Below are positions 200 through 50,458 of a DNA stretch of 64,000 bases, piece by piece. The stretch's first letter is position 1; each line of letters opens with the position of its first letter. The stretch is from Alphaproteobacteria bacterium. Its GTDB lineage: Bacteria; Pseudomonadota; Alphaproteobacteria; WRAU01; Hepatincolaceae. The stretch covers positions 176 to 64,175 of the forward strand of contig CANHGT010000001.1 in NCBI GenBank assembly GCA_947460385.1, given 5' to 3'. A program made the translations under genes and the position numbers. The notes under the pieces are model-generated. The model did no database searches. It was not told where the DNA came from and saw only the letters and a list, made by a program, of their open reading frames with translations.

Positions 200-1054
200 T
201 TATTTGCTTTTACATAGTTCTTTATAAGCGTTATCATACGTCTTTTTAATAAATTTTATGTCATCGCCTACATTGCTATTTATTAAATTGATTAATTGAT
301 CTGATTGTAAATTCTTTAATCCTTCTAAATCTACAGATAAATACATAGACAAGCTACGTAAATGCGCATTCATAAAATCTTGATTATTAGATGCTAAAAT
401 AATAGGTAATTTACTTAAAGAAGCAACCATTTTTTGCCCTTCGGGACTCTCTTTTACCATGTTGTTTAATATTAAAATATTGGTTAAAATATTTTCTTGG
501 TTAAAAGGAATAAATTGGTATATTTTTTTATTATTATGCTGATATTCTCCAGCAAATATTAGTATCTTATAAGAAAAAGACTGATTTTTTTTAATTGGAA
601 GCTGTTCTCCTACTATCTTGAATACATTATTATTAAATGTTCCTAGGTATGAACCATCAGATAAAGATTCTTGCACTGCCACACTTAATAAATTAGGAAA
701 AACAAAAATACTAGCCAAATGAGGATTCAACTTTTGAATACTTTCACTAGAAAAGTTAGAATCAATAACTTGGTTGTTTTGATTATAATTATTAAAATTT
801 AAAGTGCTTATATCGAACTGCATGTTCATATGCCAAAATACTAGCAAAGGTATAGGCAAGTTAGGGTTAGTTCCTATGTAAATATAACTACGAGTAGCTA
901 TTTGGTAAAGATCACAAAACTCATTAAAGGCTTTGGCATCTTGCATAATAAGATTTTCTACTTGCTTATGATTCAAACTATTATTTTGTGAATTTGCTAC
1001 GGCAACAATAGAAGTAAAAGTAATAATGATTATAACAATTAATAAAATTCGCAT
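200..1054 (-). CDS. Hypothetical exported protein (N-terminal hydrophobic signal-like segment, Asn-rich); no family recognised
   Basis: 284-aa intact ORF. N-terminus MRILLIVIIIITFTSIVAVANSQ looks like a signal peptide. No conserved motifs that I recognise. Confidence 0.5.
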   Translation of the reverse strand: MRILLIVIIIITFTSIVAVANSQNNSLNHKQVENLIMQDAKAFNEFCDLYQIATRSYIYIGTNPNLPIPLLVFWHMNMQFDISTLNFNNYNQNNQVIDSNFSSESIQKLNPHLASIFVFPNLLSVAVQESLSDGSYLGTFNNNVFKIVGEQLPIKKNQSFSYKILIFAGEYQHNNKKIYQFIPFNQENILTNILILNNMVKESPEGQKMVASLSKLPIILASNNQDFMNAHLRSLSMYLSVDLEGLKNLQSDQLINLINSNVGDDIKFIKKTYDNAYKELCKSK

Positions 1055-9372: not shown

Positions 9373-10155
9373 TTATTCAGCACCTAGTATTTTGCCATCT
9401 TTATTGATTTGCTGTATTGCCTTCAGAACAGTTCCATCTTTAAACTCTGTAAAAGATTGCATGTTTTCTATATAAGTTTGATACTTATATAAATCTTCAG
9501 CTTTTAAAGCTACTTGTGATAACCATAAATATGCTATAAATTTTTCTAAGTTATTCTTAGATGATGCCAAAGCTTTACTAAGATGTTGGTTAGCTTCTGT
9601 TAAATCTCCACCACCAACACTAGGAACAAACAAATTCCATTTACCTAAGCCGATATTGGCAATATAATTATTTTCATCTATCTCTAAAACTTGCTTGTAC
9701 ATATCTTGAACTTTAGGTCCTTCAGACATCTTGCTAAAAATACTAACAAACATTAAAGAATACATTTTAAAATCAGCATAAGAAGCTAAAACATTAGCAT
9801 TGATATTGCTAATTTCTACAGCTTTTATTCTTTCTTCCCATTGTTTATTTAAGTTGGTAGTAATTTCTTTAGCAACCTTACTGGTAATTAGTTTTGCCGA
9901 CAACTCAAACTGCAATAAGGCAATTTGAATATTAGAATAATTAGCAAAATCTTCTAGTGTTAAAGGGTCTTTATGTGCATTTAAATAATCTTGAAAATTC
10001 TTTGTTGTTAATTCTTTATAGTTAGCAATATCTTGGGCATTCTTAATATAATTGCCTGAATAGTAATTAAATAGAACTTTATCTGATTCAATATAATTTT
10101 CAGCTTTTAAAACACTTGTAAACAGCAATATAGTTAAAAAAATAAAATAACGCAT
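9373..10155 (-). CDS. Hypothetical exported helical (TPR-like?) protein, last gene of the mlaEF block
   Basis: 260-aa ORF with signal-like N-terminus MRYFIFLTILLFTSVLKAEN. The composition looks helical. No MCE/MlaD motifs recognised. Confidence 0.55.
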   Translation of the reverse strand: MRYFIFLTILLFTSVLKAENYIESDKVLFNYYSGNYIKNAQDIANYKELTTKNFQDYLNAHKDPLTLEDFANYSNIQIALLQFELSAKLITSKVAKEITTNLNKQWEERIKAVEISNINANVLASYADFKMYSLMFVSIFSKMSEGPKVQDMYKQVLEIDENNYIANIGLGKWNLFVPSVGGGDLTEANQHLSKALASSKNNLEKFIAYLWLSQVALKAEDLYKYQTYIENMQSFTEFKDGTVLKAIQQINKDGKILGAE

Positions 10156-19876: not shown

Positions 19877-21991
19877 ATGGAAGTTTATAAAAAATATCTA
19901 GTAGAGTTTATTAGTGCCAGTGGAATTACCTTAAAAATACCTGTATATCAAAGAAATTATGCTTGGAGTGATGAAAATTGTAAAAAACTTTGGGCAGACC
20001 TTATAAATTTAATTAGTTTAAGAAAAAATAGTGCTAAAGATAAACTTAATGATGCCTATCATTTCTTAGGTACATTAGTGGCAGTTGAAGAAAGAGAAGA
20101 AAGTACAGGTAATACAAAATATACCATAATAGATGGGCAACAACGTTTAACTACTATATCTTTATTGTTACTTGCAATGCTTAATTTATATAAAGAAAAT
20201 AATAGCCTATTAAGTAACTCTGATAATGCAGACAAGCTAGAAAATGAATATCTTAAAAATAGACATGGTGGAGAGGATACTAAAATTAAGTTGAAAACTG
20301 TTAAAAACGATAGATATGTATATGAGAAACTCTTTGAAAATAATGAAGACCTTGTAGCAAATAAAGATGCTAAACTATATCATAACTATCTCTTTTTTAA
20401 AACAAGATTACACAAATTTACTAACTCCCAAAATTATGTCAACTTTGACCCAATTCTTGATGCTATAAAAAATTTACGCATTATTTTAATAACTCTTAAT
20501 ACAGGGGAAAAACCTCAAGAAATATTTGAAAGTATTAATAGTACAGGCTTAGCATTAGAACCGTCTGATTTAATTAGAAATTATTTACTTATGAATTTAA
20601 AGAGTGCAGATCAAGAAAATATTTATAACAAATATTGGCAAATAATAGAAAATAATACGGAAATAAAAACAGAATCTCTTACCAATGAATTTATTAGAGA
20701 TTATCTTTGCTGTATAAAATCTACAACTATCAAATATGATGATGTTTTATCTACCTTTAAAGAGTATATAAGTAATAACACACATGAAAAATTAGAAAAA
20801 TTAACCACCTACTCTGGTTATTATAAAACATTATTAGAGCCACAATATCCTAACAAAATTATTAATCACTTGCTGAGTATTGTAACATATATAATTCCTA
20901 CCAGAGTTCTTTTACTTGAGGTAATTGCCGATTATGAAACAAATAAAATATATATTAAAAATGAAGCAGACTTAATAAGTATTTTAAAAATATTCGCTTC
21001 TTTAATATTAAGAAATAATCTTATTAAAAAATCTAACACTGGGTTTAATAGTAAAATTGCTCCACTACATAAAAAAATTGTAGAGTATATTGAACAAGGT
21101 AATAAATTTTCGTACTCTGAAATATTAGGAGAGCTATTAAGAGGTGATTTTGCAACTGATGAAATACTAAAACCTATACTTCCAACCTTAGCATTGTATA
21201 GCAACCACTCCTATAAAGATAGATACATATTGCAAATATTAGAGCATAAATATCAAAATAATAAAGCAATGTCTTTTGATAATATATCAATAGAACATAT
21301 TATGCCCCAAAATCCTAAAAATTGGCAACATATTAATAAAGATGACCATAAACAATATTTACACACACTTGGTAATTTAACTATAACCAATATTAATAGC
21401 AAAGCAGGTAGTAAATCTTTTGTAGATAAAAAAGAAATTTATAAAAGTGAAAGTGATATTTATAAAAATTTGTATAAAGATATTATGGATAAAGAGCAGT
21501 GGAATATTGATACTATTAAAGCAAGAAGTCATAGATTAACTGAAGAAATATTAGAGATTTTGCCTCTACCTAGAAAGATTAATCTTGAGGTAAAAAATAC
21601 AAGTAACACTTTAGATAAAATAAATGATTTAAACTATACTAAGATATTGGCTTTTACAATTTTTAATCATAAAGAAAATACAGAAACAGCAAAGGATTTT
21701 TTTCATAAGTTAGTATCATGGCTATGCAAGCAAGATGAATATAAAAATTTATTAATTCCTGATAGATTTAGGTGGTTATCATCTACAAAAATAAATGCTG
21801 ATTATAGAAAAATTGCTGGTAGTAGTTATTATGTGAATACTCACGCTAGTAGTAATAGGAAATTAGAATTAATTAAAAAGATGTTTGAAGAGTTAGAGAT
21901 TCCTTTACATGAATTATCAATAACTACCAAAGATACTACTGAAAGTGATGATGTTGATGACGAAGAAGACGATAATGAATATGAAGATTAA
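19877..21991 (+). CDS. DUF262/DUF1524 nuclease (GmrSD-like type IV restriction/defence family) with extra C-terminal domain and acidic tail
   Basis: N-terminal DUF262 motifs IPVYQRNYAW, IIDGQQRLTT and FESINSTGLALEPSDLIRNY. C-terminal His-Me/DUF1524 motif SIEHIMPQN...LHTLGNLTITN..NSKAGSKSF. Ends in ESDDVDDEEDDNEYED. Confidence 0.85.
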   Translation: MEVYKKYLVEFISASGITLKIPVYQRNYAWSDENCKKLWADLINLISLRKNSAKDKLNDAYHFLGTLVAVEEREESTGNTKYTIIDGQQRLTTISLLLLAMLNLYKENNSLLSNSDNADKLENEYLKNRHGGEDTKIKLKTVKNDRYVYEKLFENNEDLVANKDAKLYHNYLFFKTRLHKFTNSQNYVNFDPILDAIKNLRIILITLNTGEKPQEIFESINSTGLALEPSDLIRNYLLMNLKSADQENIYNKYWQIIENNTEIKTESLTNEFIRDYLCCIKSTTIKYDDVLSTFKEYISNNTHEKLEKLTTYSGYYKTLLEPQYPNKIINHLLSIVTYIIPTRVLLLEVIADYETNKIYIKNEADLISILKIFASLILRNNLIKKSNTGFNSKIAPLHKKIVEYIEQGNKFSYSEILGELLRGDFATDEILKPILPTLALYSNHSYKDRYILQILEHKYQNNKAMSFDNISIEHIMPQNPKNWQHINKDDHKQYLHTLGNLTITNINSKAGSKSFVDKKEIYKSESDIYKNLYKDIMDKEQWNIDTIKARSHRLTEEILEILPLPRKINLEVKNTSNTLDKINDLNYTKILAFTIFNHKENTETAKDFFHKLVSWLCKQDEYKNLLIPDRFRWLSSTKINADYRKIAGSSYYVNTHASSNRKLELIKKMFEELEIPLHELSITTKDTTESDDVDDEEDDNEYED

Positions 21992-22276
21992 TTTTTGCAT
22001 TTTTATTGTTAGATAATTGGTTTTTACATATAGCCTAAATACATAGTTCCTAGCCCCACTAACCGAACATAAATCCTTTTTTATTGTGGTTAGTTGGAGT
22101 TAGGGAAGTTTAATTATATCTAACCAATAATAAACACCTCACCACCCCATCTTGTTTTTGCTAAGCCAACCATAACTCCCTATGCCTTGCCAATGAAAAA
22201 ATTCATCTTACAATACAACCAAAAGTTTTGTTATATCTATTTTTACTCCGTACAATAATAATTACTAATACAATAT

Positions 22277-22308
22277 AAAATAGGATATAAAAACTTATAC
22301 CCTATTTT
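22277..22308. terminator. Hairpin between the convergent nuclease and cyclophilin A-copy genes (candidate bidirectional terminator)
   Basis: AAAATAGGATATAA / TTATACCCTATTTT inverted repeat with one mismatch and a 4-nt loop, flanked by A/T runs. Confidence 0.5.
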
Positions 22309-22339
22309 AATTTTGTAAATATAAAAATTTATTTAATGG

Positions 22340-22963
22340 CTATGATGCTGATGTAGCACCTTGATTATACTCACCACAGTTTACAATAGAAATTGTTGCT
22401 GTTGGTTTACCGTCTTTAGCGCCATAAGCTTCAATTTTAGTTACAATGTCCATTCCGCTAATTACTTCACCAAAAACTACATGCTTACCATCTAACCAAT
22501 CAGTTACAGCTGTTGTAATAAAAAATTGAGAACCATTGGTGTTAGGACCAGCATTTGCCATAGATAATAAACCCGCTTTGGTGTGTTTTACTTTAAAGTT
22601 TTCATCTGCAAACTTGTTACCATAAATAGATTTACCACCTTTTCCATTGCCCTGCATGAAGTCTCCACCTTGAAGCATAAATGATGGAATAATTCTATGA
22701 AAAATTGAACCTTTATAGCCAAATCCTTTTTCACCTGTAGCCAATGCTCTAAAATTTTCAGCTGTTTTAGGAACAATATCTGAATATAATTCTATTACAA
22801 TTTTACCCGCAGGTTGACCATTAATTGCCACATCTAAAAAAACTTGAGGTCTTTTATTTGATGAGTTTACCTCTGCAGATTGTAAACTGCTAGTTAAAAA
22901 TAGCCCTGTTAACAATATAAAACAAACAGTCAATAGTGAACTTATTAAAGATAGTTTTTTCAT
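22340..22963 (-). CDS. Cyclophilin-type peptidyl-prolyl isomerase with N-terminal signal peptide (copy A)
   Basis: Core [39 protein letters not shown]...GGKSIYG...[19 protein letters not shown]...[11 protein letters not shown]-terminus [31 protein letters not shown]. Confidence 0.9.
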
Positions 22964-23194
22964 AATTATTACCTTATGTTATAAATGTTAATATAAAAGA
23001 TAATATTATATTTTCACCTATCATATTACAACATTATTACAAATTATTGCTACTTAATATCACATTTAAAACACAGTAATGCAAAACAAAAAAAAATACA
23101 ACAAAGCAACCTAATCTTTTCTGCCTAATGGTTTATATTATCAAATTTATAATAAACAATCACAATATTTGCTAAAGTTATATAACAATGTCAT

Positions 23195-23609
23195 GATTTT
23201 TCTTACTAGAAATCTACACACTACACCTTTTGAAATTGCTATAAATTTAACATATTCAAAGATATTAGTTTTTACAATTTTTAATAACAGTTCACAAACA
23301 AACTTAGGGCATGTAAGCTATTTTTCTCATAACTTAGTATCATGTTTTTACAAACAAGATGAGTATAAAGATTTATTAACTGATGATAGATTTAAGTGAT
23401 TATCTATAAATAAAATAAAGGCAATTGATAAAAAAATTGAGGGTAGTAGTTATTATTTGGATACCGACTATAAAACTAATGAAAAATTAAAATTCATTAA
23501 ACAGATGTTTAAAGAGTTAGAGATTCCTTTACATGAATTATAAATTACTACCCAAGATAGTACGGTAGATGATTTTGATGAAGAAGACGTTAATGAAAAT
23601 GAAGAGTAA
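23195..23609 (+). pseudogene. Decayed duplicate of the 3-prime end (C-terminal domain) of the DUF262/DUF1524 gene
   Basis: Aligns codon-for-codon with about 21565-21991 (KILVFTIFN..., KQDEYKDLL..DRF, GSSYY, FKELEIPLHEL, acidic end). It carries in-frame TGA at 23397-23399 (TGG in the intact copy) and TAA at 23541-23543 (TCA in the intact copy). It has no N-terminal nuclease domains. The left boundary is approximate. Confidence 0.8.
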
Positions 23610-24110
23610 TTTTTGCATGATTATTATGAGATAATGGGTTTTTACATATAGCCTAAGTAAATCGTTCCGCCCTACTACACTCATATTAACCATTTTTGAT
23701 TTTGCTTAGTTGGGATAGATAAGCATAATTATTTATAATTTTCCAATTACTTACCACCTAATTTTGCTAAACACTCATACCCTAATAATCTACTAAGAAA
23801 AAAATTAACGCCCTAATACAACCAAAAGTTTTATTGTTCTATTTGCAATACTTATATATCAGTTATATTGTATCAATTTTTACTAATAAATTGAACCATA
23901 CTTGAAATTATATATTCGCAACAAAGAAATGAGAATTACATTAAGTGAAATACTAAATTGCTTAGCAATGAAACTGTCTAGCTAGCTAACTTATTTTACA
24001 GTAATAAAGCTTGTAGATAAGAAGGTTGTAACAATATAACGTAATAGCCTTGTTGAAATTATATTTGGTGTGAACTGTAATAATACCACTTATAACTGTG
24101 CATACAATAT

Positions 24111-24142
24111 AAAATAGGATATAAAAAATTATATCCTATTTT
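24111..24142. terminator. Hairpin downstream of cyclophilin copy B (paralogous to 22277-22308)
   Basis: Perfect 14-bp inverted repeat AAAATAGGATATAA (24111-24124) / TTATATCCTATTTT (24129-24142) with a 4-nt loop. Confidence 0.55.
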
Positions 24143-24168
24143 AATTTTGTAAATATAAATATGAAAAT

Positions 24169-25011
24169 TTATTTAACTGGAGTAGCTGTACCTTGTTCTA
24201 CAGGAACTTCTGTAGGAGTTGCTTCAGCTGTTTCACTTACAGTGCTTTCTGTTGTTGAGGTTGCTGAAGTAGAACTTGCATTTTCATCTACAGGTTTATT
24301 AGCAGAATCTTTAGTTGATGTGGCAGTTGAACCTTTATTTGAATCTGTTTTAGAATCCTTATCGGAAGTTTTATCATACTCACCAGCGTTTACAATAGAA
24401 ATTACTGCTTTTGGTTTGCCATCTTGAGAACCATAAGATTCAATTTTAGTTACAACGTCCATTCCACTAAGTACTTCACCAAAAACTACGTGCTTATCGT
24501 CTAACCAATCAGTTAAAACAGTTGTAATAAAAAATTGAGAACCATTGGTGTTAGGACCAGCATTTGCCATAGACAATAAGCCCACTTTGGTGTGTTTTAT
24601 TTTAAAGTTTTCATCTTCAAACTGTGGACCATAAATAGATTTACCACCTGTTCCATCACCTTTTTCTATGTCGCCACCTTGAATCATAAAGCCTGGAATA
24701 ACTCTATGAAAAATTGAACCTTTATAACCGAATCCTTTTTCACCTGTAGCTAAAGCTCTAAAATTTTCAGCGGTTTTAGGAACACTGTCTGAATATAATT
24801 CTATTACAATTTTACCAGCAGGCTTGCCATCAATTGCAACATCTAAAAAAACTTGAGGTCTTTTACTTGATGATATGACAGGTTGTGTGCCAACTGTATT
24901 ATCACTTGCAGGTACAGGCTCTGCAGATTGCAAAGTTCTAGTTAAAAATACCCCTGTTACTATTATAAAAAAAACAGTAAATATAGAGGTTGTTAAAGAT
25001 ACGCTTTTCAT
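24169..25011 (-). CDS. Cyclophilin-type peptidyl-prolyl isomerase with signal peptide and Ser/Thr-rich C-terminal tail (copy B)
   Basis: Same core as copy A ([33 protein letters not shown]..., [18 protein letters not shown]). N-terminus [31 protein letters not shown]. The 68-aa tail begins DKTSDKDSK and ends [16 protein letters not shown]. Confidence 0.9.
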
Positions 25012-25057
25012 AATTATTACCTTATATTAATAAATTCTCATATAATATTATTATAAT

Positions 25058-25098
25058 TATTATACTTATTATACTATTATACTATTATACTATTATAG
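25058..25098. repeat. Short tandem repeat (TATTATAC)x5, slightly imperfect, upstream of cyclophilin copy B
   Basis: Read directly: units at 25058-25065, 25067-25074, 25075-25082, 25083-25090 and 25091-25098 (the last ends in G). Absent from the paralogous upstream region of copy A. Confidence 0.7.
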
Positions 25099-25201
25099 TA
25101 CAATATATTTTTAGTTTTCATATTACAACATTCTTATAGAATATTGGAATTTTATATTAACAATTGATTCCTGCATCTTTAAGCTGTTACAATTGTTATT
25201 A

Positions 25202-32740: not shown

Positions 32741-33895
32741 CTAATTGATGATTTGTCCATTCTCTATAACATTCATCATTTTAAAATTCTCATCAAACAC
32801 CACTAAATTAGCTATAAACCCTTTACTAATTAAACCTAAATCATTTTGTAATGACATAACCCTTGCTGGATATAAAGAAGCCATTCTTAAGCTTTCAGCT
32901 AAAGATATACCTACATGTTGCACGCAATTTTTTACCGAAGACATCATATCTATGTGGCTACCTGCAAGGGTTCCATCTTTATTTACACACTTGCCATGTT
33001 CTACCATAATTTCTTGATTTGCAAAAGTAAATGAACTCATATCAGTACCCATAGGAGTTACTGCATCAGTTACAATATAAAGTTTTTCTTGCTTAATTTT
33101 CTTAACTAAGGCAATTGAATTATAATTTACATGGTAACCATCAACAATAATTCCACAAGGGATATCGCTATTTAGCAAAGCTCCCACAACACCAGGGTTT
33201 CTACCCTCAAAGCCCGACATAGCATTAAACAAATGAGTTCCTAAACTTATTCCATGCTCTATAGCTTGTTGTGCCTGTGCGTGGGTAGCATTACTATGCC
33301 CAAGTGAAACAATAACGCCATTTTGTGCTAATTTATGAATTAAAGATAAATCATTAGTTTCAGGAGCCATAGTAATTTTAATTGGCACCTCAATGGCTTT
33401 TTCAATTAAAAAATCTACCATTGCTAAATCAATAGGCTTAATGAACTTAGCATTATGAATACCTTTTTTTACGCTAGAAATATAAGGTCCTTCAATATGT
33501 ATGCCCAGTATTTTCTTATATTGTTGCTCTTTGTAAAGTTTGGCAACTAAATTAACTGCTTCTTTAATTTCTTCAGGCGTTGTTGTAATTAAAGTGGGCA
33601 AAAAACTAGTACAACCAAACTTTAAATTAGTTTTGTGCATAATTTCTAAGGTATTAATAGAGATGTCATCGTTTAACAAGACACCACCACAGCCATTAAT
33701 ATGTAAGTCTATAAAACTAGGGGCAATAACATGATTTTTCATATCGTGAATTGGCAAATTTTTATAGCGTTCTAAAATTATATTTTTAAAATCAATATCA
33801 ACTATTTTACCATTTTCAACAACTATTGCATGGTCGTATAAAAAATTATATCCGTTAAAGATTTTTTTACTAAATAATATATAATTATTAGACAT
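32741..33895 (-). CDS. nagA: N-acetylglucosamine-6-phosphate deacetylase
   Basis: Amidohydrolase motifs FIDLHINGCGG, HIEGPYIS, LGHSNA, HLFNAM and VTDA. Adjacent to nagB. Confidence 0.9.
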   Translation of the reverse strand: MSNNYILFSKKIFNGYNFLYDHAIVVENGKIVDIDFKNIILERYKNLPIHDMKNHVIAPSFIDLHINGCGGVLLNDDISINTLEIMHKTNLKFGCTSFLPTLITTTPEEIKEAVNLVAKLYKEQQYKKILGIHIEGPYISSVKKGIHNAKFIKPIDLAMVDFLIEKAIEVPIKITMAPETNDLSLIHKLAQNGVIVSLGHSNATHAQAQQAIEHGISLGTHLFNAMSGFEGRNPGVVGALLNSDIPCGIIVDGYHVNYNSIALVKKIKQEKLYIVTDAVTPMGTDMSSFTFANQEIMVEHGKCVNKDGTLAGSHIDMMSSVKNCVQHVGISLAESLRMASLYPARVMSLQNDLGLISKGFIANLVVFDENFKMMNVIENGQIIN

Positions 33896-33900
33896 ATGGG

Positions 33901-34713
33901 TTACTCCGTATTTTTAACTATTTCTTCTATATACGAAAATTCGTCCTGCAAAGAACTAAAATATTTATATGTTTTTACTTTAAGTTCAATGGTAGCTGAT
34001 TCATCAGCCACAATAATAGCTTTTTTATGAAATTGTAAAGCAGAAATAGGGCAACTATGAGATACTGCCCCTTCTAAACATTGTTGTAAAGCATGTGCTT
34101 TTTTTACTCCTTGAACTAAAATCATGACTTCTTTAGATTCAAGCAAAGTTTCAATTCCAACAGTTATAGCACTTTTTGGCACTAAGTTGATATTTCCACC
34201 AAAAAATCTGGCATTTGCATTCATTGTATCAAAATCTAGCTCTTTATCTCTTGTTTGAGAAGATAAAGAAGAATATGGTTCATTAAAAGCAATATGACCG
34301 TTTTCACCAACACCCCCAACAAATAAATCAATGCCCCCATTTTGTTTAATGCGTTCTTCGTATTCCACACAAAATTGCTTAATATCTACTGCCATTCCAT
34401 CGGGAATATTGATATTTTCTTTTTTAATATCAATGGAATTAAATAAATTTTTATGCATAAAACTATAATAACTTTGTTCATGATTTTTATCTAAACCAAT
34501 ATATTCGTCCATATTAAATGTAACTACATTTTGAAAAGATAATTGTTTTTTATTGTACATATCAATTAAAAATTCATACATTTTTACAGGAGTGCTACCC
34601 GTTGGCAATCCTAAAACAAAGTTTTTTTTAATATGATAGTTGTGAGTTTTGATTTTATTACAGATATAATTAGCTGCCCATAAACCGGGATTTTGTGAAA
34701 TGATTAATCGCAT
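33901..34713 (-). CDS. nagB: Glucosamine-6-phosphate deaminase
   Basis: LGLPTGSTP, FNMDEYIGL and GVGENGHIAFNEP motifs. 270 aa. Confidence 0.95.
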   Translation of the reverse strand: MRLIISQNPGLWAANYICNKIKTHNYHIKKNFVLGLPTGSTPVKMYEFLIDMYNKKQLSFQNVVTFNMDEYIGLDKNHEQSYYSFMHKNLFNSIDIKKENINIPDGMAVDIKQFCVEYEERIKQNGGIDLFVGGVGENGHIAFNEPYSSLSSQTRDKELDFDTMNANARFFGGNINLVPKSAITVGIETLLESKEVMILVQGVKKAHALQQCLEGAVSHSCPISALQFHKKAIIVADESATIELKVKTYKYFSSLQDEFSYIEEIVKNTE

Positions 34714-34846
34714 GTATTACTCCTTACAATGTTATATATCTAAATTCATATGTTTTGAAATATACTAAAGAAAATTAAGTTTAGTTCAACGCTAAGAAAA
34801 AATAAGATAATACTGTATTTTTATACATCAGCATTGCTATAAATAA

Positions 34847-34992
34847 AAATATGGAGTAAATACAACTAAATTTATATTTTTTCAAAGAGTTATCTGCAGT
34901 ACAGATTGTAGTTAAATTCTACATAAAACTGCAAAGATACACATAGTAAAATATAGGTTTTTAGTTATATTAAATATATTTACTCCATATTT
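34847..34992. repeat. 146-bp segment bounded by a perfect 16-bp inverted repeat, in the nagE-nagB spacer
   Basis: AAATATGGAGTAAATA (34847-34862) and its exact reverse complement TATTTACTCCATATTT (34977-34992), separated by 114 nt. Confidence 0.7.
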
Positions 34993-34999
34993 CAAGTTT

Positions 35000-36439
35000 T
35001 TATTTACTTTGGAAAACTTTTTTTATTTTATCTGCTAATGCCTCTACCTGCATTCCAATAATAATTTGCACATTTCCCTCAATATTATTAATAACTCCTT
35101 TAGCACCTAATTTTTTCAGTGTTTCTACATCTATTTTAGAATTATCAACAATAGATACTCTTAGCCTAGTAGTACAATGGCCAATATGCACAATGTTTTC
35201 TGAACCACCCATAGCTGATAAATACAACAAAGCTTCTTCGTTGTCTTTATCTGCAACATTTTTTATTGGTTCATTGCTTGCTAATTTGTTAGCTACAGTT
35301 GTTGTATCTAAAACATTAGAACTGTCATCTTCTCTGCCTGGTGTTTTAATGTTCCAAATTTTAATAGCAAAATAGAAAATTACAAAATATACTACAGCAA
35401 AAATCAATCCAATAGGAAATAATAATAAAGGATTAGTACCCAATTTGCCACTAATTAAGTAATCGAACAAGCCTGCTGAAAATGTAAAACCTAATTTGAC
35501 ATCAAAGATATTCATAACAACTAAAGAAATACCTGTTAAAATAGCATGTACTACATACAATGGAAAAGCTAAAAACATAAAACTAAATTCTAGTGGCTCT
35601 GTAACCCCTGTTAAAAAAGCTGTTAATGCGGCAGAACCTAATATGCCCATCATCATTCCTCGCTTCTCTTTTTTAGCCGTAACAATCATTGCCATGGTTG
35701 CAGCCGGTAAGCCAAACATCATAATTGGGAAAAAGCCTGCCATAAAAGAACCTGCTGTTTTATCTCCCGCAAAAAAACGCCACAAATCGCCATGTTTAAT
35801 AACTGTTACACCGTTTTCTACCACAGAATAATCGCCAAAAGTAAACCATACTAAAGAATTTAAAATATGATGTAACCCTAAAGGTATTAACAATCTATTG
35901 GCAACCCCATAAATAAATAAACCTATGTTGTCAGAATGAATAATAAAATCACCTAAGCCTTTTACTAATAAATCAATTGGAGGCCATATTATAGAAAAAA
36001 TAAAAGCAAATAAAAGAGATATTAAGCCCGTTACAATAGGAATAAATCTTCTACCACCAAAAAAGGCTATATAAACAGGCAAAGAAATGTTTTTATATTT
36101 ATTGTACAGTCCTCCTGCCAATGCACCAATAATTATTCCAGAAAATACTCCCATATTAGCACCTGGTAACAATACTAATAAAGATGCCATAAAAATAGAA
36201 TGACCAATAAAAGCAGCTAAACCTGCAGAACCATGATTATCTTCAGCAAAACCAATTGCTACGCCTAAGGCAAAAATAATTGGTAAATTAGAAAACACTG
36301 CATTACCTGCGGCAGAGATAAATGCCACATTTAATAAGTCGGGCTGACCTATTCTTAATAAAATACCCGCAATTGGTAAAACTGCAATAGGTAGCATTAA
36401 AGCTTTACCTAAATTTATAAAAAAATTACCGACCTTCAT
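35000..36439 (-). CDS. nagE: PTS EIICB component, glucose/GlcNAc family (N-acetylglucosamine specificity inferred from context)
   Basis: Polytopic EIIC domain followed by an EIIB domain with active-site CTTRLRV (NIVHIGHCTTRLRVSIVD). No EIIA domain. Flanked by nagB/nagA and an EIIA-HPr-EI gene. Confidence 0.85.
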   Translation of the reverse strand: MKVGNFFINLGKALMLPIAVLPIAGILLRIGQPDLLNVAFISAAGNAVFSNLPIIFALGVAIGFAEDNHGSAGLAAFIGHSIFMASLLVLLPGANMGVFSGIIIGALAGGLYNKYKNISLPVYIAFFGGRRFIPIVTGLISLLFAFIFSIIWPPIDLLVKGLGDFIIHSDNIGLFIYGVANRLLIPLGLHHILNSLVWFTFGDYSVVENGVTVIKHGDLWRFFAGDKTAGSFMAGFFPIMMFGLPAATMAMIVTAKKEKRGMMMGILGSAALTAFLTGVTEPLEFSFMFLAFPLYVVHAILTGISLVVMNIFDVKLGFTFSAGLFDYLISGKLGTNPLLLFPIGLIFAVVYFVIFYFAIKIWNIKTPGREDDSSNVLDTTTVANKLASNEPIKNVADKDNEEALLYLSAMGGSENIVHIGHCTTRLRVSIVDNSKIDVETLKKLGAKGVINNIEGNVQIIIGMQVEALADKIKKVFQSK

Positions 36440-36516
36440 AATTTTATACTCCCCTTTTGTTACAAAACTTAAATTAACAGTTAATTAAATAATAAATTTC
36501 ACATGATATGATTTTA

Positions 36517-39069
36517 CTATATATTAAAAGTTTCCAATACCAACTTTTCCACTTCATCTGCCGTAGCAAAAGTTAATGCCTTATTAGCCACTTCTACACA
36601 TTGTGCATAATTAAGAGTTCTAATTAAAGCTTTCACATCGGGAATAGACTTCATAGAAGTTGACAGTTCATGCACTCCAAGACCTAATAATATTGGGATA
36701 GAACTTAATTCTGAAGCCATTGCCCCACAAACTGCAGTTGGTTTATTACTTAAATTTCCACCATCTACTGTCATTTTAATAAGTTTTAAGATAGCAGGGT
36801 GTAAATTATTTAATTTTTTGGTTAAATGAGAGTTGCCACGATCCATCGCCATAACATACTGGGCAAGATCGTTAGTTCCAATAGAGAAAAAGTCTACATA
36901 TTTAGCCATTTGCTCTGCTAAAATAGCCGAAGAAGGAACCTCAATCATTGTTCCAATTTCTACAGGAACATTAATTCCTAATATTTTTTTCTCTTCTTCT
37001 ATAATTGCTTTTACGGCAATCATTTCACTAATATCACTAATCATTGGCACCATTATTTTTACCAGAATTAATGGTTTTACCTTTAAAATAGAACGAACCT
37101 GTGTTAAAAATATCTCTTTATTGTTAAAGTAATTTCTTACTCCACGCATGCCTAAAATTGGATTCTCTTCAGGATCAATATGTACATAACTTAAAGGTTT
37201 GTCTCCACCAACATCTAAAGTTCTTAATGTAACACTGCCTCCTTGCATAGAATCTAAAGCTCCTTGATATAACAAAATCTGTTCTGCTTCTGTTGGTGCA
37301 TTCTGAGAATTAAAAAATAAAAATTCTGTACGCAATAAACCCACCCCTTCGGCACCCAGTGCTAAAGCTTTTGAAGCCTCTAACGCATTAGAAACATTGC
37401 CTTTAACTTTAATGGCAACGCCATCTTTAGTAACTGCAGGCTCCATAGCATGAGAAATATTTTCAGCACGGACTTTTTCTATTTTAGTATGTTTTTCTAC
37501 CATTTCTGCTAGTATGTTTGCATCGGGATTTATAACTAAAGTTTTATCATTAGCATCTACAATTAAATTGGTACCATCAGAAATATAATCTAATGAATCG
37601 CCTAAAGACACAATAGCAGGAACACCCATATTTCTTAACATTAAAGCCACATGAGCTGTAGCTGAACCATGAGACAATACCACTGCCTTAACGTTTTCAT
37701 CAAACTTAGATAAATCAGATGGAACTAAATCTTTAGCTACTATTACAGTATTTTCAGGAAAAGAATCTATAGTTTTATCGGGCAAACCTAATATTTTAGA
37801 AATTACACGCCTTTTAATATCTTTAAGATCGGCTACCCTCTCAATTAAGAGGGCGTTACCACTTCCTTGTAGAATAGAAACACTATCTTTAATAGACATA
37901 GACCAAGCAAAAGCTGAAGACTTACCTTGAGAAATATATTTTCTTGCATTTTCTACAATAGCAGGGTCTTGTAAAATATTTAAGTGTGCGTTAAAAATCT
38001 CTACCTGAGTTTTTTGTGATTTTGCATTGGCTACTGCAATATCATTGTTAATGCTTTCATGAACCTGCTTCAAGGCATTATTCAGAAGCGTAAGTTCATT
38101 TTCAACACTACCACCTTGCTCATTTACTTTAATTTCTTCTTCACTCATCATTAATGACTTACCAATAACCATGCCCGGAGAAGCTAAAACACCTTTCAAT
38201 GTTACTGTTTTACTAAAATCTGTAACAATATCTTTAGCTACAACATTAGATGAAGCTACAGCACTAACCCCAGATTTTGCCACGTTTTCACCTAATCCAT
38301 CTATTACTGCCTTAGATAATTCAGCTACTGCACTACTTGCGTCATCACCATTTGCCACAAATTCTATTTTATCGTTAAATTTAATACCCATACCAAGAAT
38401 AGAAATTACGCTTTTAGCATTAGCTTTTTTATCATTACTTCTAAGTTCAATTGTAGATTTATATCTATTAGCTATTTGAAAGATTGCAGAAGCAGGACGA
38501 GCGTGAATCCCTGTGTGATTCGCCACAGTTAAAACTTCAGAAAACACCTCATTACTATTAGATGAAACAGATTGTACAGCTTCTAACTTTACACTAGCAT
38601 CTTTATTATCAATAACTACCAATTGTTTTTGCTTTTCAATATGACCTTCGGGCTGTAAAAATAATTTTTGGTCTTCCGACAAATTGGTAAACACCATAAT
38701 TACATCTATGCTTGGTGCGTTTTTAGAGATAAAATCAAAATCTACTTCTAGTAACTTTTCACCTTTTTTAACAGATTGCCCTACTTTTACAAAAGCTTTA
38801 AAGCCTTTACTTTGTAATTTCACAGTATCTATACCAACATGCAATAAAATAGTAATGCCATGTGCGGTCGTAAGTGCTACTGCATGATTAGAATCATGTA
38901 AAGTTTCAATAATACAATCACAAGGAGCAACAATATTTTGTACTCCAAGATTAGGTTGAATTGCCAAACCATCGCCCAGCATTTTCTCTGCAAATACAGG
39001 ATCACTAACTTTAGTAATATTTATTAAATTGCCTTCAATTGGTGCGTATATTGTTTCTTGTGATGCCAT
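36517..39069 (-). CDS. Multiphosphoryl transfer protein: PTS EIIA(Glc-type)-HPr-Enzyme I fusion
   Basis: EIIA region (DPVFAEKMLGDGLAI..., HAVALTT..., LLHVGIDTV). HPr region (NHTGIHARPAS). EI region (GSATAHVALMLRNMGVPAIV, GLLRTEFLF, RTLDVGGDK, FFSIGTNDLAQY). 850 aa. Confidence 0.9.
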   Translation of the reverse strand: MASQETIYAPIEGNLINITKVSDPVFAEKMLGDGLAIQPNLGVQNIVAPCDCIIETLHDSNHAVALTTAHGITILLHVGIDTVKLQSKGFKAFVKVGQSVKKGEKLLEVDFDFISKNAPSIDVIMVFTNLSEDQKLFLQPEGHIEKQKQLVVIDNKDASVKLEAVQSVSSNSNEVFSEVLTVANHTGIHARPASAIFQIANRYKSTIELRSNDKKANAKSVISILGMGIKFNDKIEFVANGDDASSAVAELSKAVIDGLGENVAKSGVSAVASSNVVAKDIVTDFSKTVTLKGVLASPGMVIGKSLMMSEEEIKVNEQGGSVENELTLLNNALKQVHESINNDIAVANAKSQKTQVEIFNAHLNILQDPAIVENARKYISQGKSSAFAWSMSIKDSVSILQGSGNALLIERVADLKDIKRRVISKILGLPDKTIDSFPENTVIVAKDLVPSDLSKFDENVKAVVLSHGSATAHVALMLRNMGVPAIVSLGDSLDYISDGTNLIVDANDKTLVINPDANILAEMVEKHTKIEKVRAENISHAMEPAVTKDGVAIKVKGNVSNALEASKALALGAEGVGLLRTEFLFFNSQNAPTEAEQILLYQGALDSMQGGSVTLRTLDVGGDKPLSYVHIDPEENPILGMRGVRNYFNNKEIFLTQVRSILKVKPLILVKIMVPMISDISEMIAVKAIIEEEKKILGINVPVEIGTMIEVPSSAILAEQMAKYVDFFSIGTNDLAQYVMAMDRGNSHLTKKLNNLHPAILKLIKMTVDGGNLSNKPTAVCGAMASELSSIPILLGLGVHELSTSMKSIPDVKALIRTLNYAQCVEVANKALTFATADEVEKLVLETFNI

Positions 39070-49079: not shown

Positions 49080-49129
49080 GGGTTTTATATAATTAATGTT
49101 AATTCTTTCATTTGTAGAAGGTAAACACT

Positions 49130-49521
49130 ATGAATGAAAGAATAACAGACAATTTAGTTCATACTATTATTCGTGATTTTGCTATCAATATGATTATACA
49201 GTAATAATTGTTAGAACATTATTGCTTTATACTAATAAATTTGACTTAAATAAGTATATAGGATTTTATATATGTAGCTTATTAAGAATGAATAAATATA
49301 AATATACTTACGGTAGAGTATTATCAGGAGATAGAATTAAGTTAGAAAGAATTATTTTACCAGTAGCTGAAAATGGTAATCCAGATTGGCAGTTTATGGA
49401 AAATTATATTAAATCTTTACCATATAGTAAAAATCTAGAAAATAAGGCTACATTAAATAAATTATTTGTACTTTCTATTTTGTTTTTCAATCTAAAAGTA
49501 TTATTGTATCTAAAGTCATAG
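49130..49521 (+). pseudogene. Probable gene remnants (short broken reading frames), family unassigned
   Basis: A 24-codon ORF (49130-49204, MNERITDNLVHTIIRDF...) is followed by a 99-codon TTG-initiated frame (49222-49521) ending in low-complexity hydrophobic residues. There is no RBS context, and about 0.9 kb of ORF-free DNA follows. Confidence 0.35.
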
Positions 49522-50370
49522 ACTTGATATATAAAACAAATGTAGCTAATGTTCTTGTGCTATAATATTATATTTAACTACATTACAAAGTCATTGTGGC
49601 TAGAAAATACTATACAATCATAATAACGATTAATTATTCAATCGGCATAGAGCTTTTAAAACCTTTTGATCTACTCCAATGCCAGTATTTGCCTACAACA
49701 TAAATATTGGTTGATTTACGCTACACTTGGCTACTAACCATAACCTTCCCATCTGTTTTTTTATTCCAAATACCATTTTGCCACGAACTTCATTGTATAA
49801 AAAATATAATCCATATAGGTAAACAATGCCAAATGTAGTAATAGTATTAAAACTTGTTAGTAAATAATTTTCCTACATTTATTAAAATAATTGTTTATTG
49901 TTAATCTCCTCATCCTAGTAATTTAATTGTATTTGTTTCAGTAATATATAAGCTAAAATACTTCATTACTTCAATGCCTTGCCGAGCAATATGACTATAC
50001 TTTTATAATTGTTGTTAGTTGTATGTAATATGGGTTATTGCCTTTTTCTATAAAGATATCTAAAGCCTTAATATATTGCTCTAAAAAGATTATAATGCCA
50101 CTTATAGGGCAACTATCTAGCAATATAATATAGTAAATAACAATAGGGAGCCTTAATTATTAAGCACCTACTTTGTGCCAAATTCAAAACAAAATAATCA
50201 AACTGATATAATACTAGTGTGGGTAGAATAATCTAAATAAGATTTATTTATAATCTAATATAAGTGAAATATCAATGAAAGTTTAAGATTAACTGTATAG
50301 GAATAGTAAATTTTCTATATTCTTATAAATAAAAAAAGTTTTACCATTATAAAACTAGATATATACATAT

Positions 50371-50408
50371 ATAAAATAAAAAAAGCATTTTACTTTACAG
50401 TAAAATAC
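50371..50408 (-). terminator. Rho-independent terminator of the rpoA-rplQ (alpha) operon
   Basis: Minus-strand RNA would read GUAUUUUACU-GUAA-AGUAAAAUGC (10-bp stem with one G-U pair and a tetraloop) followed by UUUUUUUAUUUU. It lies about 50 nt after the rplQ stop. Confidence 0.7.
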
Positions 50409-50458
50409 TTTTTATAAATAGCAAATTAAATAAACATTTCTATAGTTTATTAGAAAAA

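What the first reader, a model, noticed from the sequence alone, without database searches (positions are those of the whole stretch)
22340..25011. Two tandem, signal-peptide-bearing cyclophilins that look eukaryotic (CypA/CypB-like) rather than proteobacterial
Both ORFs carry a cyclophilin core that aligns without gaps to human cyclophilin A as I remember it. By eye roughly two thirds of positions are identical. Shared strings include [81 protein letters not shown] and ..CG. The Trp in T-D-W-L-D-G, which is the cyclosporin-contact Trp in eukaryotic enzymes, is present.

Copy B also shares strings I associate with secretory-pathway cyclophilin B (FMIQGGD...[11 protein letters not shown] and [27 protein letters not shown]). 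Typical proteobacterial PpiA/PpiB are far more divergent and need indels to align.

Each ORF starts with a hydrophobic export signal ending LQS-AE, so the proteins are probably exported. In a reduced host-associated genome this suggests a host-derived (HGT) foldase used as a secreted host-interaction factor. It has recently been duplicated, next to a defence gene.
Basis: partly seen in the sequence, partly recalled or inferred. Interest (0 to 1): 0.8.

Follow-up and report, generated by a model that had tools for sequence, protein, structure and literature searches.

The report
Duplicated exported CypA-type cyclophilins in gut symbiont
A small-genome gut symbiont of the Hepatincolaceae family carries two neighbouring, export-tagged copies of the 'human-like' cyclophilin A type of protein-folding enzyme; the genes are real and were probably acquired from outside the lineage, but this enzyme type is widespread in other bacteria, so a host origin or a host-directed role is not shown.

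Summary
ORFs 22340-22963 (207 aa, copy A) and 24169-25011 (280 aa, copy B), both on the minus strand, are cyclophilins. They align without gaps to human CypA and CypD at 65-68% identity. All 13 catalytic and cyclosporin-contact residues are identical to human CypA, including Trp121. Against E. coli PpiA/PpiB they show only 30-41% identity, with indels. Each has an N-terminal hydrophobic export segment ending T-x-x-L-Q-[S/A]|A-[E/D].

The genome belongs to the Hepatincolaceae, extracellular gut symbionts of ecdysozoans. Five other genomes of the family keep FtsK-LolA but have no cyclophilin after LolA, so lineage-specific acquisition is likely.

CypA-type cyclophilins at the same identity (66-74%) are common in Streptomyces, Planctomycetota, Myxococcota and Bacteroidota, and some of those carry Sec or Tat signals. 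Trees and profiles do not resolve a eukaryotic from a bacterial donor. Codon usage is fully native.

The pair arose by a ~1.4-1.9 kb tandem segmental duplication that also copied the 3' end of the neighbouring GmrSD gene, now a pseudogene. With dS about 0.28, the duplication is older than the strain split. Copy B's CypB-like strings are convergent.

The family is reported to have almost no secretion machinery beyond Sec and Tat. Periplasmic or membrane-tethered foldases are therefore the likeliest reading.

The parts
22340..22963 (-). Copy A: 207-aa CypA-type cyclophilin precursor. Export segment aa 1-29 = 22877-22963. Catalytic core aa 38-198 = 22370-22852.
   Evidence: ORF. PF00160 at E 1.9e-50. 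Gapless 67.5/68.3% identity to human CypA/CypD. All 13 active-site residues match human CypA.
24169..25011 (-). Copy B: 280-aa CypA-type cyclophilin precursor. Export segment aa 1-29 = 24925-25011. Extra linker, aa 30-50 = 24862-24924. Core aa 51-211 = 24379-24861. Ser/Thr-rich disordered tail aa 212-280 = 24172-24378.
   Evidence: ORF. PF00160 at E 4.2e-49. AF2 core pLDDT mostly 80-98, with linker and tail below about 60. Foldseek target-normalised TM 0.92-0.93 to CypA/CypD. Tail composition: T15 S12 K7 A7 of 69 residues. Tail length varies among orthologues.
21627..23060 (.). Duplication unit 1: 3' end of the intact GmrSD gene, the convergent intergenic region with its hairpin, copy A, and copy A's upstream region.
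   Evidence: Direct repeats D1-D5, D8, D12. blastn blocks 21627-22242 / 23245-23844 (74.5%), 22361-23013 / 24370-25058 (81.5%) and 23021-23060 / 25118-25157.
23245..25157 (.). Duplication unit 2: GmrSD 3' fragment, the hairpin, copy B, and copy B's upstream region.
23244..23668 (+). Pseudogenised partial copy of the GmrSD 3' end, corresponding to aa 584-691 of the intact gene and its downstream DNA.
   Evidence: tblastn gives 56% identity over 110 aa with two in-frame stops. Repeats D2 and D4.
19877..21991 (+). Intact GmrSD-family (DUF262/DUF1524) type IV restriction-like defence gene, convergent with copy A.
   Evidence: Pfam GmrSD_N at 2.5e-36 and GmrSD_C at 7.2e-23. PADLOC Orf5 at 2.5e-102, plus HEC-06 and mREase_IV.
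22276..22309 (-). A/T-rich 15-bp-stem hairpin followed by a U-run, downstream of copy A. Probable intrinsic terminator, possibly bidirectional.
   Evidence: MFE -15.4 kcal/mol, z = -3.4. Conserved in both duplication units (D5).
24110..24143 (-). Paralogous hairpin terminator downstream of copy B.
   Evidence: MFE -18.6 kcal/mol, z = -6.0. D5.
22971..22975 (-). AAGGT ribosome-binding site 7 nt upstream of the copy A start codon. The same AAGGTAATAATT-ATG arrangement precedes copy B at 25019-25023.
   Evidence: Read directly from the sequence.
25041..25097 (-). (GTATAATA)x7 tandem repeat just upstream of copy B. Each unit contains a perfect TATAAT box. It is absent from the related strain.
   Evidence: TRF: period 8, 6.9 copies. 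Comparison with L081-L086.

Best explanation
These are two paralogous peptidyl-prolyl cis-trans isomerases of the cyclophilin A type in a Hepatincolaceae gut symbiont.

Each is made with an N-terminal Sec-type export segment. The catalytic domain therefore works outside the cytoplasm, in the periplasm. It is either released by signal peptidase after LQ[S/A], or stays tethered to the inner membrane if the unusually long hydrophobic segment is not cleaved. There it would speed proline isomerisation in folding envelope proteins, as periplasmic PpiA does in E. coli.

The gene entered this lineage from outside the Alphaproteobacteria. The donor, a eukaryote or another bacterium, is unresolved. The gene has since taken on native codon usage.

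A tandem segmental duplication of about 1.4-1.9 kb then copied it, together with its promoter region, its terminator hairpin and the 3' end of the neighbouring GmrSD gene. Copy B later gained a 13-residue linker and a disordered Ser/Thr-rich tail, and it evolves faster.

Shown: the family, the fold, the intact active site, the duplication anatomy, and absence from the syntenic site in relatives. Inferred: export route, cleavage, periplasmic foldase role, cyclosporin sensitivity, and HGT.
For: Identity and fold:
- Pfam, PDB sequence search, gapless BLASTP alignments.
- AF2 model and Foldseek.
- All 13 CypA active-site residues conserved in both paralogues and their orthologues.

Functional genes:
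- Core dN/dS is 0.35 between paralogues and 0.5-0.6 between orthologues.
- RBS and conserved upstream motifs.
- Terminator hairpins.
- Codon adaptation like that of ribosomal protein genes.

Export:
- Basic N-terminus, a 22-24-residue uncharged stretch, and a conserved T-x-x-L-Q-[S/A]|A-[E/D] with allowed -3/-1 residues. This is kept across A and B types while the rest of the segment drifts.
- No internal Met that could give a cytosolic form (sequences).

Duplication.

Lineage-specific presence:
- The same cypB-cypA-GmrSD-TyrRS order occurs in a conspecific metagenome contig.
- Five other Hepatincolaceae genomes have FtsK-LolA without cyclophilins.
- The KEGG table of Ca. Hepatincola porcellionum lists no K03767.

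Periplasmic rather than secreted: the family is reported to have almost no protein secretion systems besides Sec and Tat (PMC11724238).

Precedents: bacterial exported CypA-type proteins in Planctomycetota, Acidobacteria and Thiospirillum.
Against: - No signal-peptide predictor was available. The hydrophobic segment is longer than in classical signals of the same genome (LolA) or of E. coli PpiA, so cleavage is uncertain.
- Only a 64-kb window was seen, plus 20-kb samples of related genomes. A CypA-type gene elsewhere in the relatives is not excluded. All Hepatincolaceae analysed in PMC11724238 score positive for COG0652, type unknown.
- The NJ sister group is eukaryote-only in 114 of 195 informative bootstraps and bacteria-only in 3.
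- Copy B has a fast, mosaic pattern of evolution and a mucin-like tail. Those features would also suit a surface-exposed protein.
Confidence: 0.62

Rival explanations
1. One reading: a cyclophilin gene captured from a eukaryote, possibly the animal host, and now exported out of the cell. It would act on host proteins or receptors as a mimic of host CypA/CypB.
For: - CypA type with intact cyclosporin-site residues.
- Export segments.
- Extracellular, microvillus-associated lifestyle of the family (abstract).
- The nearest named neighbours in NJ bootstraps are mostly metazoan or fungal (Ciona in 76 of 200; eukaryote-only sister in 114 of 195).
- Lineage-specific presence.
- Copy B diverges about four times faster than copy A between two strains and has a variable Ser/Thr-rich tail.
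- Precedent: secreted eukaryote-type PpiA of M. tuberculosis (PMC3913756).
Against: - No specific eukaryotic donor lineage emerges. Top hits are a mix of fungi, lophotrochozoans, a tunicate and a mite at 74-76%, level with Polyangia at 74%.
- Mean identity to eukaryotes and to bacteria is equal.
- Euk-versus-bac profiles do not discriminate, and there are no shared derived residues.
- Codon usage is fully native.
- The family reportedly has no outer-membrane secretion system.
- dN/dS is below 1 everywhere except the signal segment.
Confidence: 0.13
2. The same enzymes, but the N-terminal segment is an uncleaved signal anchor. Both proteins would then be inner-membrane-tethered PPIases facing the periplasm, like the membrane-anchored surface cyclophilin PpiA of Lactococcus lactis.
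For: - Uncharged stretch of 22-24 residues with Kyte-Doolittle mean 2.1-2.3 over 19 residues, i.e. transmembrane length. This compares with 14-17 residues in LolA of the same window, E. coli PpiA and other exported bacterial CypA-types.
- AF2 models a helix at residues 7-21 followed by a flexible linker.
- Precedent: PMC3307742.
Against: - A conserved polar c-region with -3 Leu and -1 Ser/Ala, followed by Ala-Glu/Asp, is what a signal peptidase I site looks like. It is the best-conserved part of the segment.
- A Gly sits at position 20, in the middle of the hydrophobic stretch.
Confidence: 0.22
3. Ordinary, vertically inherited alphaproteobacterial PpiA/PpiB-type cyclophilins.
For: COG0652 is reported present in all Hepatincolaceae genomes analysed in PMC11724238.
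Against: - 30-41% identity with 12-16 gap positions to E. coli PpiA/PpiB, against gapless 65-68% to CypA/CypD.
- 60-66 bits against NCBIfam equivalog cut-offs of about 300.
- Five active-site positions differ between the two types, and here all follow CypA.
- Absent after LolA in five relatives.
Confidence: 0.02
4. Assembly artefact or host DNA contamination.
For: None found.
Against: - The same gene order appears in independent metagenome contigs from several samples.
- Native GC3 and codon usage.
- Bacterial RBS and terminators.
- Housekeeping bacterial genes on both sides.
Confidence: 0.01

Closest known systems
Human cyclophilin A (PPIA) and cyclophilin D (PPIF)
   Same: Gapless alignment at 65-68% identity. 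All 13 catalytic and cyclosporin-contact residues are identical. The fold matches (target-normalised TM 0.92-0.93).
   Different: The human proteins are cytosolic or mitochondrial. These are bacterial genes with a bacterial RBS, an N-terminal Sec-type segment and, in copy B, a disordered tail.
Human cyclophilin B (PPIB), the secretory-pathway cyclophilin
   Same: N-terminal signal plus a C-terminal extension. A few shared strings ([24 protein letters not shown]).
   Different: Only 60% identity with 3 gaps over the 163-aa core for copy B, and 50% with 17 gaps over 204 aa including the N-terminus for copy A. No VEKPFAIAKE-type C-terminus. Copy B's nearest relative is copy A, so the resemblance is convergent.
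E. coli periplasmic PpiA (RotA)
   Same: Probable working analogue: a Sec-exported cyclophilin-fold PPIase in the cell envelope.
   Different: A different subfamily. 30-35% identity with indels. Phe instead of Trp121 and Tyr instead of His126. Far below the NCBIfam equivalog cut-off.
Bacterial CypA-type ('eukaryote-like') cyclophilins of Streptomyces and other Actinobacteria, Myxococcota, Planctomycetota and Bacteroidota; M. tuberculosis PpiA
   Same: The same subfamily at 66-74% identity. The 'actino-eukaryotic' clade and a possible inter-domain transfer are already discussed in the literature, as is a secreted eukaryote-type PpiA acting on host proteins (PMC3913756).
   Different: Most of these are cytosolic proteins of 163-168 aa. 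None of those recovered is from a reduced alphaproteobacterial symbiont, and none is a tandem pair with a Ser/Thr-rich tail.
Exported 190-207-aa CypA-type proteins of Planctomycetota, Acidobacteria and Thiospirillum
   Same: A CypA-type core preceded by a Sec or Tat-like signal.
   Different: Their signals are short and classical (15-residue hydrophobic cores) or carry twin arginines. They do not group with the window clade.
Lactococcus lactis PpiA, a membrane-anchored surface cyclophilin
   Same: An exported cyclophilin held by an N-terminal hydrophobic segment, with PPIase and chaperone activity in vitro (PMC3307742).
   Different: Described in PMC3307742 in a Gram-positive bacterium. Its sequence was not compared with the window proteins here.

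Membership tests
Cyclophilin-type PPIase (Pfam PF00160) | Profile match above the gathering score over the whole domain | tested here: met
   171.7 and 167.3 bits against a cut-off of 21.7, covering profile positions 2-158 of 159.
Cyclophilin-type PPIase (Pfam PF00160) | Eight-stranded beta-barrel cyclophilin fold | tested here: met
   AF2 core pLDDT mostly 80-98. Foldseek target-normalised TM 0.92-0.93 and rmsd about 2 A to CypA/CypD.
Cyclophilin-type PPIase (Pfam PF00160) | PPIase activity | not testable with these tools
   Needs the recombinant mature proteins in a protease-coupled or NMR assay.
CypA-type (cyclosporin-binding, 'eukaryote-like') subfamily | Gapless alignment to CypA with no PpiA/PpiB-type or divergent-loop indels | tested here: met
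   0 gaps over 160-164 aa to human CypA/CypD.
CypA-type (cyclosporin-binding, 'eukaryote-like') subfamily | R55, F60, M61, Q63, A101, N102, A103, Q111, F113, W121, L122, H126 conserved | tested here: met
   All identical in both copies and in P0121, P0040 and P0045. E. coli PpiA/B differ at 101, 102, (103), 121 and 126.
CypA-type (cyclosporin-binding, 'eukaryote-like') subfamily | Nanomolar cyclosporin A binding or inhibition | not testable with these tools
   Inferred only, from the conserved contact residues.
Eukaryotic-origin gene (host-derived HGT) | Nested with support inside a eukaryotic clade, closer to eukaryotes than to any bacterium | tested here: inconclusive
   - The clade is monophyletic in 195 of 200 bootstraps, but the best sister (Ciona) appears in only 76 of 200. 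The sister is eukaryote-only in 114, unlabelled-only in 61, mixed in 17 and bacteria-only in 3.
- Mean identity to copy A is 70.1% for eukaryotes and 69.6% for bacteria.
- The profile log-odds fall in the overlap zone.
Eukaryotic-origin gene (host-derived HGT) | Compositional signature of recent foreign origin | tested here: not met
   GC3 is 0.165 and 0.143 against a genome mean of 0.192 +/- 0.039. The CAI-like index is 0.73 and 0.77 against 0.69 +/- 0.05.
Cyclophilin B (PPIB) orthologue | Closer to CypB than to CypA/CypD, with a CypB-type C-terminus | tested here: not met
   50-60% identity with gaps to CypB, against 65-68% gapless to CypA/D. CypB is absent from the top 60 PDB hits. The tail is unrelated low-complexity sequence.
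E. coli-type PpiA / PpiB (NCBIfam NF008151 / NF008057 equivalogs) | Score at or above the equivalog cut-off | tested here: not met
   60-66 bits against cut-offs of 308 and 297.
Sec signal peptide cleaved by signal peptidase I | Basic n-region, hydrophobic h-region, polar c-region with small or aliphatic -3 and small -1 | tested here: inconclusive
   MKK/MKS is present. The -3 Leu and -1 Ser/Ala before Ala-Glu/Asp are conserved. But the h-region is 22-24 residues, which is transmembrane length. No dedicated predictor was available.
Tat signal peptide | Twin-arginine motif in the n-region | tested here: not met
   No RR in residues 1-30 of either copy (sequences). Compare L008, L048 and L055_2, which have TRRE/TRRQ.
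Bacterial lipoprotein | Lipobox [LVI][ASTVI][GAS]C | tested here: not met
   Copy A has LTVC, with Val at -1. The Cys is Phe or Leu in all B-type sequences.
GmrSD type IV restriction family (the neighbouring gene) | DUF262 N-terminal and DUF1524 C-terminal domains | tested here: met
   GmrSD_N at 126 bits and GmrSD_C at 81.5 bits. PADLOC Orf5, HEC-06 and mREase_IV.

The most novel reading that the evidence does not exclude
An extracellular gut symbiont captured a eukaryotic, possibly animal, cyclophilin A gene and fitted it with a bacterial export segment. It then duplicated the gene. The fast-evolving copy B, with its mucin-like tail, would be displayed on or released from the cell, for example in outer-membrane vesicles. 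There it could act on host microvillar proteins or cyclophilin receptors. That would be a case of eukaryote-to-symbiont transfer used for host mimicry.
Probability: 0.1. Interest if true: 0.6.

Novelty: new member of a known kind. Interest (0 to 1): 0.3.

Why it matters
The finding adds a clear case of lineage-specific gain and duplication of a folding catalyst in a genome that is otherwise shrinking. The duplication left a dated footprint in the form of the GmrSD pseudogene. It also suggests a testable idea: in a Sec/Tat-only symbiont, envelope protein folding is served by a xenologous CypA-type enzyme that should be sensitive to cyclosporin.

It is also a warning. About 67% identity to human CypA does not indicate a eukaryotic donor, because bacterial CypA-type proteins are just as similar. 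If the proteins did reach the host surface, they would be candidate symbiosis factors in a family for which almost no interaction machinery is known.

Tried and rejected
- Exact look-ups of copy A in the contig index failed, although the protein is in the protein collection.
It did not return the source genome, so presence or absence across whole Hepatincolaceae genomes could not be tested.
Only four of those stretches passed tblastn, all generic matches to residues 38-76.
- A eukaryote-versus-bacteria profile classifier had no discriminating power. Leave-one-out put only 36% of eukaryotic sequences on the right side.
- A search for shared derived residues found six family-specific states. No outside sequence shared more than three.
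- A lipoprotein signal and a Tat signal were considered and rejected.
- CypB orthology was rejected.
- Phase variation at the (GTATAATA)n repeat was considered. The related strain lacks the repeat, and its six contigs are nearly identical there (one substitution in L084, outside the repeat position), so there is no evidence for it.
- Rfam and tRNA scans of the window found nothing.
- A literature search for the metagenome label GROS21 was uninformative.
- The window contains no alaS-pyk region. Whether the weak PpiB-like gene of Ca. Hepatincola (HAV_01215) has been replaced here could not be checked.
Full report
**What is there**

The minus strand carries two ORFs at exactly the reported coordinates: 22340-22963 (207 aa, copy A) and 24169-25011 (280 aa, copy B). 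Both match Pfam PF00160 end to end at E about 1e-50.

Against solved structures the best hits are human cyclophilin D and cyclophilin A, at E 1e-71 to 1e-75, in single ungapped stretches. BLASTP gives these figures:

| Comparison | Copy A | Copy B |
|---|---|---|
| Human CypA | 67.5%, 160 aa, 0 gaps | 64.8%, 162 aa, 0 gaps |
| Human CypD | 68.3%, 164 aa, 0 gaps | 66.5%, 164 aa, 0 gaps |
| Human CypB | 50%, with gaps | 60%, 3 gaps |
| E. coli PpiA/PpiB | 30-36%, 15-16 gap positions | 35-41%, 12-15 gap positions |

The E. coli sequences were taken from MG1655.

All 13 residues that form the CypA catalytic and cyclosporin-binding site are identical to human CypA in both copies and in their orthologues. 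These are R55, F60, M61, Q63, G72, A101, N102, A103, Q111, F113, W121, L122 and H126. E. coli PpiA/B differ at 101, 102, (103), 121 and 126.

An AF2 model of copy B has a confident cyclophilin core. Foldseek returns CypA and CypD with target-normalised TM scores of 0.92-0.93. The two proteins score only 60-66 bits against the NCBIfam PpiA and PpiB equivalogs, whose cut-offs are about 300. No other cyclophilin is encoded in the window.

**Whose genome it is**

SecY of the window is 76% identical to that of 'Candidatus Hepatincolaceae symbiont of Richtersius coronifer', and the next hits are unnamed Alphaproteobacteria. FtsK hits include Ca. Hepatincola sp. Pdp and several contigs of 1.1-1.5 Mb.

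The Hepatincolaceae are extracellular, microvillus-associated gut symbionts of arthropods and other ecdysozoans. They have small genomes. [quoted passage not shown]

The window is about 30% G+C and otherwise holds housekeeping genes. These include isc/hsc genes, TyrRS, LolA, FtsK, LptF/G, a PTS-NagAB locus, pst genes and the ribosomal protein operon.

**Anatomy of the pair**

The two genes are products of a tandem segmental duplication.

- Unit 1 (21627-23060) holds the last ~365 bp of the intact GmrSD gene, the convergent intergenic region, copy A and ~100 bp upstream of it.
- Unit 2 (23245-25157) repeats all of this in the same order.
- The copied GmrSD piece (23244-23668) corresponds to residues 584-691 of the intact protein. 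It is 56% identical and has two in-frame stops, so it is a pseudogene.

Both cyclophilin genes keep three features:

- the same AAGGTAATAATT-ATG ribosome-binding arrangement;
- a shared upstream motif, AATGTTGTAATATGA;
- the same A/T-rich 15-bp hairpin followed by a U-run downstream.

The paralogues are 74% identical overall and 83% in the core. For the core, dS is 0.275 and dN is 0.095. The neutral GmrSD fragment is 74.5% identical to its parent.

A conspecific metagenome contig (L081; FtsK 98%, SecY 99%) has the same cypB-cypA-GmrSD-TyrRS order. A third B-type sequence (P0040) also exists. In trees, the A-type and B-type sequences form reciprocal subclades.

The duplication therefore predates these strains, since copy A's orthologue dS is only 0.025. 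It is 'recent' only on a long timescale.

**How copy B differs**

Copy B has a 13-residue insertion after the export segment. It also has a 69-90-residue tail rich in Thr, Ser, Lys and Ala. The tail is of variable length and is modelled as disordered, and it ends in a conserved PVE..TATPVK.

Between the two strains, copy B has diverged about four times more than copy A (dN 0.075 and dS 0.099, against 0.014 and 0.025). The pattern is mosaic. The 5' end and the last ~60 bp of the upstream region are strongly diverged, while the tail is 98% identical at the DNA level. In the window strain alone, a (GTATAATA)x7 repeat sits just upstream of copy B.

Copy B's nearest relative is copy A, and both are closer to CypA/D than to CypB.

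**Export**

Both proteins begin with MKK or MKS, followed by 22-24 uncharged residues, then T-x-x-L-Q-[S/A]-A-[E/D]. This c-region is the best-conserved part of a segment that otherwise evolves neutrally (dN/dS about 1) while staying hydrophobic. Leu at -3 and Ser/Ala at -1 fit the signal peptidase I rule. There is no twin arginine and no lipobox.

The hydrophobic stretch is longer than in LolA of the same window, E. coli PpiA, or the exported CypA-type proteins of Planctomycetota and Thiospirillum, which have 14-17 residues. An uncleaved signal anchor therefore cannot be excluded. The lactococcal membrane-anchored cyclophilin PpiA is a precedent.

A long, very hydrophobic signal would also suit SRP-dependent targeting in a family reported to lack the dedicated post-translational Sec component. 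This last point is my inference.

Either way, the catalytic domain should end up on the periplasmic side. Nothing in the data indicates passage across the outer membrane.

**Origin**

Acquisition in this lineage is likely, for three reasons.

- Five other Hepatincolaceae genomes keep FtsK-LolA but have unrelated genes after LolA.
- The KEGG table of Ca. Hepatincola porcellionum has no K03767. It lists only a weak second-best PpiB hit, for HAV_01215.
- The two genes do not belong to the E. coli-type PpiA/PpiB subfamily.

One caveat: COG0652 is scored present in every Hepatincolaceae genome analysed in PMC11724238, with the type not stated. I could not scan whole genomes.

The donor is unresolved. 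A scan of GTDB representative genomes found at least 494 bacterial loci encoding relatives. The best 80 (58-73% identity in the best segment) come from these groups:

- Streptomyces, Kitasatospora and Streptacidiphilus
- Planctomycetota
- Myxococcales and Polyangia
- Flavobacteriales
- Runella
- Verrucomicrobia
- Acidobacteria
- Thiospirillum
- an unclassified Pseudomonadota MAG

Several of these carry Sec or Tat-like signals.

In a 158-column alignment of 179 sequences, named eukaryotes average 70.1% identity to copy A (maximum 75.3%) and named bacteria 69.6% (maximum 74.1%). Human CypA itself averages 71.5% to the bacterial set and 70.9% to the eukaryotic set.

The window clade is monophyletic in 195 of 200 NJ bootstraps, but it sits on an unresolved comb in which bacterial and eukaryotic sequences interleave. 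The most frequent sister, Ciona, appears in 76 of 200 replicates. The sister group is eukaryote-only in 114 replicates, unlabelled-only in 61, mixed in 17 and bacteria-only in 3. That is a lean towards eukaryotes, not a result.

A eukaryote-versus-bacteria profile test and a search for shared derived residues were uninformative. GC3 and codon adaptation are native and resemble those of ribosomal protein genes.

The existence of a mixed 'actino-eukaryotic' cyclophilin clade, and of a secreted eukaryote-type PpiA in M. tuberculosis, is already in the literature.

**Verdict**

The two genes are functional, exported CypA-type cyclophilins, gained by this symbiont lineage and then duplicated along with a piece of the neighbouring defence gene. 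The most economical function is envelope protein folding.

The host-mimicry reading remains possible but has no positive evidence. It is disfavoured by the family's lack of secretion machinery.

This is a new member of a known kind: bacterial CypA-type cyclophilins, some of them exported. It comes with a neat duplication history and an unexplained, fast-evolving, tailed paralogue. Interest is modest.

Noticed in passing
window 23244-23668 (+): A pseudogenised copy of the last ~110 codons of the neighbouring GmrSD gene lies between the two cyclophilin genes. It is 56% identical at the protein level and has two in-frame stops. It marks the boundaries and the age of the segmental duplication.
   Followed up: yes
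window 25041-25097: An octamer repeat, (GTATAATA)x7 on the minus strand, sits immediately upstream of copy B. Each unit carries a perfect TATAAT box. The conspecific metagenome contigs L081-L086 lack it and are nearly identical to each other there (one substitution in L084). Its effect on expression is unknown.
   Followed up: partly
window 24862-25080 vs L081 9930-10150: Between two strains whose FtsK, SecY and copy A are 97-99% identical, the 5' end of copy B (signal and linker) and its proximal upstream region are only 73-83% identical. The 3' tail is 98% identical. This mosaic suggests recombination or localised rapid evolution.
   Followed up: partly
window 24172-24378 (copy B tail): The tail is Thr/Ser/Lys-rich, is predicted to be disordered, and varies from 69 to about 90 residues among three strains. 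Its C-terminus, PVE(QG)TATPVK, is conserved and ends in Lys. No known sorting or attachment motif was recognised.
   Followed up: partly
window 19877-21991 vs L081 13282-15057: The GmrSD-family protein is 704 aa here but is called as 591 aa in the conspecific contig. The extra C-terminal region here ends in an acidic run (DDVDDEEDDNEYED). In PADLOC it matches Orf5, HEC-06 and the SspE N-terminus.
   Followed up: no
window 32741-39069 (-): A compact N-acetylglucosamine-type locus. It has an 850-aa fusion of PTS EIIA, HPr and Enzyme I, then an EIICB permease, NagA and NagB. This would fit a chitin-rich arthropod gut niche.
   Followed up: partly
window 200-1054 (-) and 9373-10155 (-): Two ORFs of 284 and 260 aa with no Pfam match at E <= 1e-5.
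   Followed up: no
window 49080-50458: About 1.4 kb at ~25% G+C with no ORF of 120 aa or more, no tRNA and no Rfam hit. It lies between an amino-acid permease gene and the end of the ribosomal protein cluster.
   Followed up: no
L008, L048, L055 (second gene): CypA-type cyclophilins in Acidobacteria and Planctomycetaceae carry twin-arginine-like N-termini (TRREF/TRREM/TRRQV). This suggests Tat export of a pre-folded cyclophilin.
   Followed up: no
one search hits P0001-P0030: The highest-scoring database hits are 300-360-aa proteins with two tandem CypA-type domains, for example from Ichthyophonus and Dissostichus, and many are on ~1.1-kb metagenome or transcript contigs. Their scores exceed the self-hit only because two domains are summed.
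   Followed up: partly
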